Of a stretch of 64,000 nt of DNA, positions 60,001-63,000 are shown in pieces; the stretch's first letter is position 1; every line of letters starts with the position of its first letter. The stretch is from Escherichia coli (GTDB taxonomy: Bacteria; Pseudomonadota; Gammaproteobacteria; Enterobacterales; Enterobacteriaceae), in assembly GCF_017348835.2 (NCBI RefSeq), contig NZ_CP071375.1; one strand, written 5' to 3'. The position numbers were made by a program.

Positions 60001-63000
60001 TGTTGACCATTTACGCATGGGTAGTAGCGCTAATGTCATTGCCTTTTATGTTAATGACCAGTCAGGTTGAACGGCGCAAACTACTGTTCTGCCTGTTTGT
60101 GGTGTTTATTGCCAGCCACGTACTGTCGTTTTTATCGTGGAGCTTTACCGTTCTGGTGATCAGTCGCATTGGTGTGGCTTTTGCACATGCGATTTTCTGG
60201 TCGATTACGGCGTCTCTGGCGATCCGTATGGCTCCGGCCGGGAAGCGAGCACAGGCATTGAGTTTAATTGCCACCGGTACAGCACTGGCAATGGTATTAG
60301 GTTTACCTCTCGGGCGCATTGTGGGGCAGTATTTCGGCTGGCGAATGACCTTCTTCGCGATTGGTATCGGGGCGCTTGTTACCCTTTTGTGCCTGATTAA
60401 GTTACTTCCCTTACTGCCCAGTGAGCATTCCGGTTCATTGAAAAGCCTCCCGCTATTGTTCCGCCGCCCGGCATTGATGAGCATTTATTTGTTAACTGTG
60501 GTGGTTGTCACCGCCCATTACACGGCATACAGCTATATTGAGCCTTTTGTGCAAAACATTGCGGGATTCAGCGCCAACTTTGCCACGGCATTACTGTTAT
60601 TACTCGGTGGTGCGGGCATTATTGGCAGCGTTATTTTCGGTAAACTGGGTAATCAGTATGCGTCTGCGTTGGTAAGTACGGCGATTGCGCTGTTGCTGGT
60701 GTGCCTGGCACTGCTGTTACCTGCGTCGAACAGTGAAATACACCTCGGGGTGCTGAGTATTTTCTGGGGGATCGCGATGATGATCATCGGGCTTGGTATG
60801 CAGGTTAAAGTGCTGTCGCTGGCACCAGATGCTACCGACGTCGCGATGGCGCTATTCTCCGGGATATTTAATATTGGAATCGGGGCGGGTGCGTTGGTAG
60901 GTAATCAGGTGAGTCTGCACTGGTCAATGTCGATGATTGGTTATGTGGGCGCGGTGCCTGCTTTTGCCGCGTTAATATGGTCAATCATTATATTTCGCCG
61001 CTGGCCAGTGACACTCGAAGAACAGACGCAATAGTTGAAAGGCCCATTCGGGCCTTTTTTAATGGTACGTTTTAATGATTTCCAGGATGCCGTTAATAAT
61101 AAACTGCACACCCATACATACCAGCAGGAACCCCATCAGGCGGGAGATCGCTTCAATGCCACCCTTGCCCACCAGCCGCATAATTGCGCCAGAGCTGCGT
61201 AGACTTCCCCACAAAATAACCGCCACCAGGAAAAAAATCAGCGGCGGCGCAACCATCAGTACCCAATCAGCAAAGGTTGAACTCTGACGCACTGTGGACG
61301 CCGAGCTAATAATCATCGCTATGGTTCCCGGACCGGCGGTACTTGGCATTGCCAGTGGTACAAAAGCAATATTGGCACTGGGTTCATCTTCCAGCTCTTC
61401 CGACTTGCTTTTCGCCTCCGGTGAATCAATCACTTTCTGTTGCGGAAAGAGCATCCGAAAACCGATAAACGCGACGATTAAGCCGCCTGCAATTCGCAGA
61501 CCGGGAATCGAAATGCCAAATGTATCCATCACCAGTTGCCCGGCGTAATACGCCACCATCATGATGGCAAAGACGTACACCGAGGCCATCAACGACTGAC
61601 GATTACGTTCGGCACTGTTCATGTTGCCTGCCAGGCCAAGAAATAACGCGACAGTTGTTAATGGGTTAGCTAACGGCAGTAACACCACCAGCCCCAGGCC
61701 AATTGCTTTAAACAAATCTAACATTGGTGGTTGTTATCCTGTGTATCTGGGTTATCAGCGAAAAGTATAAGGGGTAAACAAGGATAAAGTGTCACTCTTT
61801 AGCTAACCTTGCATCGCATTGACCAAAACTTGAACCGATTTAGCAAAACGTGGCATCGGTCAATTCATTCATTTGACTTATACTTGCCTGGGCAATATTA
61901 TCCCCTGCAACTAATTACTTGCCAGGGCAACTAATGTGAAAAGTACCAGCGATCTGTTCAATGAAATTATTCCATTGGGTCGCTTAATCCATATGGTTAA
62001 TCAGAAGAAAGATCGTCTGCTTAACGAGTATCTGTCTCCGCTGGATATTACCGCGGCACAGTTTAAGGTGCTCTGCTCTATCCGCTGCGCGGCGTGTATT
62101 ACTCCGGTTGAACTGAAAAAAGTGTTGTCGGTCGACCTGGGAGCACTGACCCGTATGCTGGATCGCCTGGTCTGTAAAGGCTGGGTGGAAAGGTTGCCGA
62201 ACCCGAATGATAAGCGCGGCGTACTGGTAAAACTTACCACCAGCGGCGCGGCAATATGTGAACAATGCCATCAATTAGTTGGCCAGGACCTGCATCAAGA
62301 ATTAACAAAAAACCTGACGGCGGACGAAGTGGCAACACTTGAGCATTTGCTTAATAAAGTCCTGCCGTAAACAAAAAATGAGGTATGACGATGTCCAGAC
62401 GCAATACTGACGCTATTACCATTCATAGCATTTTGGACTGGATCGAGGACAACCTGGAATCGCCACTGTCACTGGAGAAAGTGTCAGAGCGTTCGGGTTA
62501 CTCCAAATGGCACCTGCAACGGATGTTTAAAAAAGAAACCGGTCATTCATTAGGCCAATACATCCGCAGCCGTAAGATGACGGAAATCGCGCAAAAGCTG
62601 AAGGAAAGTAACGAGCCAATACTCTATCTGGCAGAACGATATGGCTTCGAGTCGCAACAAACTCTGACCCGAACCTTCAAAAATTACTTTGATGTTCCGC
62701 CGCATAAATACCGGATGACCAATATGCAGGGCGAATCGCGCTTTTTACATCCATTAAACCATTACAACAGCTAGTTGAAAACGTGACAACGTCACTGAGG
62801 CAATTATGAAACCGCTTTTATCCGCAATAGCAGCTGCGCTTATTCTCTTTTCCGCGCAGGGCGTTGCGGAACAAACCCAGCAACCGCTCGTTACTTCCTG
62901 TGGCGATGTGGTGGTTGTTCCCCCATCGCAGGAACAACCACCGTTCGATTTAAATCACATGGGTACAGGCAGTGATAAGTCGGATGCGCTCGGCGTGCCC

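What the first reader, a model, noticed from the sequence alone, without database searches (positions are those of the whole stretch)
61837..61935. Complete marO architecture readable directly in the sequence
Marbox, -35 hexamer and both MarR operator palindromes are present and well spaced before the GTG start of marR. No mutation is apparent in the sites typically altered in Mar-constitutive isolates.
Basis: partly seen in the sequence, partly recalled or inferred. Interest (0 to 1): 0.2.

Follow-up and report, generated by a model that had tools for sequence, protein, structure and literature searches.

The report
Intact E. coli marO promoter-operator
This stretch is the ordinary, well-studied control region of the E. 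coli multiple-antibiotic-resistance operon marRAB, identical to the laboratory strain K-12, next to a marR repressor gene with two common harmless variants and one rare untested one (K140N).

Summary
Window 61837-61935 is the marO promoter-operator of E. coli marRAB. It is base-for-base identical to K-12 MG1655 and exact in about 70% of 5,418 complete E. coli records. It holds the 20-bp marbox (61837-61856), -35 TTGACT (61873-78), a 17-bp spacer, -10 TATTAT (61896-901), MarR site I (core TTGCCTGGGCAA, 61884-95), site II (core TTGCCAGGGCAA, 61919-30) and the GTG start of marR (61936). No operator mutation is present.

MarR differs from K-12 at three residues: G103S, Y137H and K140N. G103S and Y137H together form the commonest natural allele and are reported as unlinked to resistance. 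K140N is rare: 1 of 5,426 complete genomes, the exact protein on 15-24 contigs, and no paper found. Its effect is untested. K140 is K or R in 75 of 85 orthologues, and T, S or A occur in others. MarA is identical to K-12. marR is full length.

The most likely state is a normally repressed, inducible mar operon. This is a known system and of low interest. Side notes: K140N arose twice through different codons, and the closest genome (pig strain PE164) carries an extra marO base change.

The parts
61059..61724 (-). marC (NAAT-family inner-membrane protein), transcribed divergently from marRAB
   Evidence: 221-aa ORF. Annotated as marC at the matching place in K-12, PE164 and F2_81.
61816..61835 (+). 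Region just upstream of the marbox where the accessory Fis site is reported; the exact bounds are recalled from Martin & Rosner 1997, not measured here. Contains the polymorphism 61823 C (K-12 has A).
   Evidence: Papers state that Fis binds upstream of the marbox (PMC6003448; PMC7355843). The window's allele of 61790-61850 is exact in 3,062 of 4,268 matching records, so it is the majority form.
61837..61856 (-). marbox: 20-bp binding site for MarA/SoxS/Rob, in 'backward' orientation relative to the promoter
   Evidence: 1-mismatch match to AYNGCACNNWNNRYYAAAY on the - strand at 61838-61856. Identical to K-12. Role taken from PMC6003448 and PMC3920692.
61873..61878 (+). -35 hexamer TTGACT of the marRAB promoter
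   Evidence: Promoter scan: TTGACT, 17-bp spacer, TATTAT, 10 of 12 consensus positions.
61879..61899 (+). MarR operator site I. Core palindrome TTGCCTGGGCAA at 61884-61895. It lies between -35 and -10 and overlaps the first 4 bp of the -10. The outer bounds follow the published footprint as recalled.
   Evidence: Exact pattern match and 15-nt direct repeat D2. Site I placed between -35 and -10 per PMC3920692.
61896..61901 (+). -10 hexamer TATTAT. The transcription start is inferred at about 61908-61909.
   Evidence: The start site is inferred from hexamer geometry and was not measured.
61914..61935 (+). MarR operator site II. Core TTGCCAGGGCAA at 61919-61930, with flanking ATTA/TAAT symmetry. 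It overlaps the marR ribosome-binding region and ends at the base before the GTG.
   Evidence: Site II placed near the translation start per PMC3920692. It overlaps the RBS per PMC6003448.
61936..62370 (+). marR: 144-aa repressor with a GTG start. Differs from K-12 by G103S (62242 A), Y137H (62344 C) and K140N (62355 T).
   Evidence: 98% identical to solved MarR structures 3VOE, 3VOD, 5H3R and 1JGS. Pfam PF01047.
62391..62774 (+). marA: AraC/XylS-type activator, 127 aa, identical in protein sequence to K-12
   Evidence: There are 2 synonymous differences.
62806..63024 (+). marB: small periplasmic protein, 72 aa, with 6 aa differences from K-12
   Evidence: The exact protein is seen on 108 contigs.

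Best explanation
This is the wild-type marO promoter-operator of an Escherichia coli chromosome, from a pig-associated lineage very close to strains PE164 and F2_81. It is read from known biology as follows. RNA polymerase uses TTGACT-17 bp-TATTAT. A MarR dimer on site I, between and overlapping the hexamers, blocks the promoter. A second dimer sits on site II over the ribosome-binding region just before the GTG of marR. When MarR is released by salicylate-type ligands, copper oxidation or mutation, transcription of marRAB rises. MarA, or SoxS or Rob, then binds the marbox about 61.5 bp upstream of the start. With Fis bound just upstream, this gives further activation and a positive feedback loop. 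Every cis element is identical to K-12, marR is full length and MarA is unchanged. The most likely state is therefore a normally repressed, inducible mar operon, not a Mar-constitutive one. Shown here: the sequence identity, the positions and spacing of the elements, the ORF integrity and the allele frequencies. Inferred from the literature: the protein-DNA contacts and the regulatory logic. Not shown: that MarR-K140N represses normally.
For: Interval 61837-61935 is 100% identical to MG1655 and exact in 3,804 of 5,418 complete E. coli records. The gene order ydeA, marC(-), marR, marA, marB, eamA(-) is the same as in K-12. The hexamers match 10 of 12 positions with a 17-bp spacer. The two operator repeats are exact, 35 bp apart, against 0 expected by chance. 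The marbox matches its consensus with 1 mismatch. marR is an uninterrupted 144-aa ORF, 98% identical to crystallised MarR. MarA is 100% identical to K-12. G103S and Y137H together are the commonest natural allele and are not associated with resistance. Positions 103 and 137 vary freely among orthologues. The architecture and roles are as described in PMC6003448, PMC3920692 and PMC7355843.
Against: MarR carries K140N. It is rare: 1 of 5,426 complete genomes, the exact protein on 15 contigs in the cluster table and 24 contigs read in the gene index, and no paper found. Position 140 is K or R in 75 of 85 orthologues. It lies in the C-terminal helix; from recalled literature (Linde 2000, Notka 2002) that helix contributes to dimerisation, and its deletion derepresses mar. 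An effect on repression cannot be excluded. No expression or MIC data exist for this strain. Other routes to a Mar phenotype (lon, acrR, soxR, rob) lie outside the window.
Confidence: 0.85

Rival explanations
1. The cis region is intact, but MarR-K140N is a partial loss-of-function repressor with weaker dimerisation or DNA binding. The strain would then be mildly Mar-derepressed, and the substitution would have been selected by antimicrobial exposure in livestock.
For: K140N is derived and rare. It is the only difference from F2_81 in about 5.3 kb around mar. The same amino-acid change arose independently through a different codon on another background: AAC in L013 against AAT here. The sister genome PE164 added a marO change at 61912. 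Thus 2 of about 15 substitutions on the window/PE164/F2_81 tree fall in the 646 bp of marO plus marR, about 1% of the window; my own Poisson estimate gives P of about 0.01. K or R predominates at position 140. marR is a known target of selection.
Against: T, S and A occur at position 140 in natural orthologues, so a basic residue is not required. The residue lies outside the winged-helix DNA-binding region. The cluster holds about 3,030 distinct MarR-type sequences, so recurrence of a single substitution is expected without selection. The enrichment rests on two events. There is no phenotype data.
Confidence: 0.1
2. K140N strengthens repression, giving a super-repressor-like allele with lower basal and induced mar expression.
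For: From memory only (Alekshun & Levy 1999, not retrievable here): substitutions in the C-terminal helix were reported to increase MarR DNA binding. No tool result supports this directly.
Against: Nothing in the sequence points this way. Removing a positive charge would not be expected to strengthen DNA binding.
Confidence: 0.03
3. The motif matches are coincidental and the region is not a functional operator.
For: The marbox consensus alone matches at chance frequency in 64 kb. The promoter scan finds as many sites as in shuffled sequence.
Against: The interval is 100% identical to the experimentally dissected K-12 marO. Synteny is conserved. The operator repeat occurs twice against 0.00 expected. 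The region is present in 5,416 of 5,426 genomes.
Confidence: 0.01

Closest known systems
E. coli K-12 MG1655 marO / marRp (marC-marR intergenic region, NC_000913.3 about 1,618,909-1,619,119)
   Same: Interval 61837-61935 is identical base for base. The gene order, the GTG start, the hexamers, the marbox and both MarR sites are the same.
   Different: There are two upstream substitutions, 61806 A (K-12 G) and 61823 C (K-12 A).
MarR allele WP_000843419.1 (G103S + Y137H), the common natural E. coli allele
   Same: The window has S103 and H137, as do F2_81, HB-Coli0, O111:H8 99.1145, E54 and UPEC957C.
   Different: The window adds K140N (AAG to AAT at 62355). This gives WP_207184209.1, as annotated in PE164.
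Mar-constitutive marO/marR genotypes (operator deletions or duplications, marR truncations)
   Same: Same locus.
   Different: None of these lesions is present here. For contrast, strain UPEC957C carries a 35-bp deletion that fuses sites I and II and removes the -10. A 20-bp operator duplication is described in PMC3920692.

Membership tests
E. coli marO (marRAB promoter-operator) | Located between divergent marC and marRAB | tested here: met
   ORFs and the annotation of the matching places in K-12, PE164 and F2_81.
E. coli marO (marRAB promoter-operator) | 20-bp marbox upstream of the -35 | tested here: met
   61837-61856, 1 mismatch to the consensus, identical to K-12.
E. coli marO (marRAB promoter-operator) | Sigma-70 promoter hexamers with about 17-bp spacing | tested here: met
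   TTGACT, 17 bp, TATTAT; 10 of 12 consensus positions.
E. coli marO (marRAB promoter-operator) | Two MarR sites with a TTGCCnGGGCAA core: site I between -35 and -10, site II abutting the marR start | tested here: met
   61884-61895 and 61919-61930, both exact, 35 bp apart, 0.00 expected by chance.
E. coli marO (marRAB promoter-operator) | Actual binding of MarR, MarA/SoxS/Rob and Fis in this strain | not testable with these tools
   Inferred from identity to K-12 marO, where binding was shown.
MarR-family repressor (MarR proper) | Full-length 144-aa winged-helix protein, orthologous to crystallised MarR | tested here: met
   141 of 144 residues identical to K-12. E = 1.7e-91 to 3VOE. PF01047.
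Mar-constitutive genotype | Mutation, deletion or duplication in operator site I or II | tested here: not met
   0 differences to K-12 in 61837-61935.
Mar-constitutive genotype | Frameshift, nonsense or truncation of marR | tested here: not met
   Intact 144-aa ORF.
Mar-constitutive genotype | Inactivating missense substitution in MarR | tested here: inconclusive
   G103S and Y137H are benign polymorphisms. K140N is rare and uncharacterised.
Mar-constitutive genotype | Elevated marA/acrAB expression or a multidrug MIC shift | not testable with these tools
   Needs wet-lab measurement.

The most novel reading that the evidence does not exclude
MarR K140N is not neutral. Under this reading it is a convergently acquired substitution (AAT here and in PE164, AAC in an unrelated lineage) that shifts MarR repression. 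Together with the extra marO T>C change in sister strain PE164, it would mark stepwise selection on the mar regulatory region in a livestock-associated E. coli clone.
Probability: 0.1. Interest if true: 0.25.

Novelty: already known. Interest (0 to 1): 0.06.

Why it matters
It matters little. marO is among the best-characterised bacterial operator-promoter regions, and this copy is the wild-type majority form. The practical value is for genotype-to-phenotype calling. Tools and papers that flag MarR G103S/Y137H as 'resistance mutations' are scoring the commonest natural allele against the atypical K-12 reference. The one residue worth a bench test is K140N.

Tried and rejected
1. I searched the literature for 'MarR' plus 'K140N' and found no papers.

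2. I tried to read the primary papers and none is held: Martin & Rosner 1995 (MarR footprints), Martin et al. 1996, Duval et al. 2013 and Linde et al. 2000. The footprint limits, the -61.5 marbox position, the Fis site bounds and the C-terminal-helix statements therefore rest on memory and are marked as such.

3. A general literature search on the MarR C-terminus and dimerisation returned mostly irrelevant papers.

4. An Rfam scan of the whole window found no RNA family in the mar region. The only hit was an IS3 ALIL pseudoknot at 36096-36212.

5. The marbox-consensus and promoter-consensus scans are not significant as statistics. The identification rests on identity to K-12 and on the operator repeat.

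6. I considered reading the second marbox-like site at 40686-40704 as a mar-regulon target. I rejected this because it falls within the chance expectation.

7. I considered predicting the structure of the K140N variant. I did not run it, because the tool returns no contact-level information that would settle the effect.

Full report
**What is at the coordinates**

Window 59844-63975 carries ydeA, marC (- strand), a 211-bp intergenic region, marR, marA, marB and eamA (- strand). This is the order annotated in E. coli K-12 MG1655, in pig strain PE164 and in pig strain F2_81.

**Checking the observation**

- **Marbox.** Its reverse complement (61838-61856, - strand) matches the consensus AYNGCACNNWNNRYYAAAY with one mismatch.
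- **Promoter.** The only strong + strand promoter-like site in 61600-63200 is TTGACT (61873-78), a 17-bp spacer, then TATTAT (61896-901), matching 10 of 12 positions.
- **Operator cores.** TTGCCTGGGCAA (61884-95) and TTGCCAGGGCAA (61919-30) are the only exact matches to TTGCCNGGGCAA in 64 kb.
- **Operator repeat.** The longer repeat TACTTGCCNGGGCAA occurs twice, 35 bp apart, against 0.00 expected in shuffles.
- **Geometry.** Site I lies between the hexamers and overlaps the -10. Site II runs up to the GTG and covers the ribosome-binding region.
- **Caveat.** The marbox and promoter consensus matches are not significant as statistics on their own. The identification rests on the operator repeat, the synteny and identity to K-12.

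**Comparison with K-12 and the species**

The 221-bp marC-marR region differs from MG1655 at only two bases: 61806 (A, K-12 G) and 61823 (C, K-12 A). Both are upstream of the marbox, and 61837-61935 is 100% identical.

The 99-bp interval is exact in 3,804 of 5,418 complete E. coli records, so it is the majority allele. Three of the one-mismatch variants were fetched. Their changes are C>T at 61870 or at 61861, between the marbox and the -35 and outside all four functional elements.

The window's upstream allele (61790-61850) is exact in 3,062 records. K-12, not the window, is therefore the minority form there. Position 61823 lies where I recall the accessory Fis site to be. Papers confirm only that Fis binds upstream of the marbox.

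**The marR coding sequence**

marR is an uninterrupted 144-aa ORF. It differs from K-12 by G103S, Y137H and K140N.

*G103S and Y137H.*
- Removing K140N gives WP_000843419.1, the MarR annotated in F2_81, HB-Coli0, O111:H8 99.1145, E54 and UPEC957C.
- A 57-bp probe over codons 137-140 matches 4,215 records with a single mismatch. Given megablast's 28-nt word, this can only be the H137/K140 form, so about 78% of complete genomes carry it.
- PMC4317672 found no association of G103S/Y137H with any level of levofloxacin resistance. The pair occurs in isolates with MICs from 0.016 µg/mL upward.
- PMC7082582 lists it as the commonest MarR change in 280 isolates.
- Among 85 full-length orthologues, positions 103 and 137 are highly variable.

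These two are polymorphisms relative to an atypical reference.

*K140N.*
- The exact 57-bp sequence occurs in 1 of 5,426 complete genomes, PE164.
The gene index read 24 contigs carrying it.
- No held paper mentions it.
- Position 140 is K in 68 and R in 7 of 85 orthologues, with T (5), S (2) and A (1) also present. N occurs only in this allele.

The residue is therefore moderately conserved but not strictly required to be basic. Its functional effect is untested.

MarA is identical to K-12.

**Mechanism**

The mechanism is established for K-12 and inferred here from sequence identity.
- MarR dimers bind site I and site II and repress marRAB. Ligands or mutations that release MarR derepress the operon.
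- MarA, SoxS or Rob bound at the marbox then activate the promoter, helped by Fis bound just upstream.
- Sort-Seq in K-12 recovered the Fis, MarA, RNA polymerase and upstream MarR sites. The downstream MarR site was less clear because it overlaps the RBS.

All cis elements, marR integrity and MarA are as in K-12. The best reading is a normally repressed, inducible operon (confidence 0.85). The main rival is partial loss of function through K140N (confidence about 0.1).

**Lineage context**

The mar region (1,336 bp) is at least 99% identical to only 8 of 5,419 records.

*PE164.* Over the whole 64 kb, the window differs from PE164 (pig, Nanjing) by 7 substitutions, 2 small indels (3 bases) and a 1,488-bp segment at hipA.

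*F2_81.* It differs from F2_81 (pig, Australia) by 12 substitutions over about 52.7 kb, plus deletions in F2_81.

*Substitutions in the mar region.*
- K140N (62355 T) is shared with PE164 and absent from F2_81 and everything else, so it is derived.
- PE164 alone has T>C at 61912, two bases upstream of the site II extended palindrome.
- Two of about 15 substitutions on this small tree thus fall in the 646 bp of marO plus marR. My own Poisson estimate gives P of about 0.01. It rests on two events and is only suggestive.

*Independent origin.* A second lineage (L013, run ERR12666591) encodes the same MarR protein with N140 as AAC rather than AAT. Its background is clearly different: no T insertion at 62379, a marB nearly identical to K-12's (one amino-acid difference), and a different downstream gene. 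K140N therefore arose at least twice. The cluster holds about 3,030 distinct MarR-type sequences, so recurrence alone is weak evidence of selection.

**Verdict**

The interval is a correctly identified, textbook regulatory region in its wild-type majority form. It is already known and of low interest. The one item worth a bench test is MarR K140N.

Noticed in passing
window 62353-62355 (marR codon 140); L013 1501-1935: K140N is encoded by AAT in the window, PE164 and L012, but by AAC in an unrelated lineage (L013, run ERR12666591). The same rare amino-acid change therefore arose at least twice.
   Followed up: partly
window 61912 (compared with PE164, L002): The closest complete genome, PE164, shares K140N and also has a marO T>C change. 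It lies 2 bp upstream of the site II extended palindrome, at about +4/+5 of the transcript. Two of about 15 substitutions among the window, PE164 and F2_81 fall in marO plus marR.
   Followed up: partly
L007 (UPEC957C), matching window 61881-61915 / 61897-61931: This canine UPEC genome has a 35-bp deletion that fuses MarR sites I and II into one hybrid site and removes the -10 hexamer. marC is also truncated there. It is a natural example of a broken marO.
   Followed up: partly
window 62379: There is a one-base T insertion in the marR-marA spacer, just upstream of the marA Shine-Dalgarno GAGG, relative to K-12. The exact allele occurs in only 63 of 5,416 complete records, but in diverse strains.
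   Followed up: partly
window 62806-63024 (marB), especially 62878-62910: marB is by far the most diverged gene of the operon against K-12: 15 nt and 6 aa differences in 219 bp. This compares with 8 nt in marR and 2 nt in marA. Nine of the differences cluster within 33 bp.
   Followed up: no
window 35697-36899 (- strand): hipA is disrupted by an IS3-family remnant: OrfA at 36167-36493 and an Rfam ALIL frameshift pseudoknot at 36096-36212. PE164 has 1,488 bp more at this spot (a fuller IS3 copy and more of hipA), and F2_81 has an intact hipA.
   Followed up: partly
window 59424 (yneK): A T-run is one base shorter than in F2_81, matching PE164, where yneK is annotated as frameshifted.
   Followed up: no
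window 40686-40704 (+): A second 1-mismatch match to the marbox consensus (ATAGCACTAATTGCTAAAA) lies in the intergenic region between an autotransporter pseudogene and lsrK. It is within the chance expectation of 1.47 per window.
   Followed up: no
window 61806 and 61823: At both upstream marO polymorphisms, K-12 carries the minority allele and the window the majority one. Position 61823 lies in the reported Fis-site region.
   Followed up: partly
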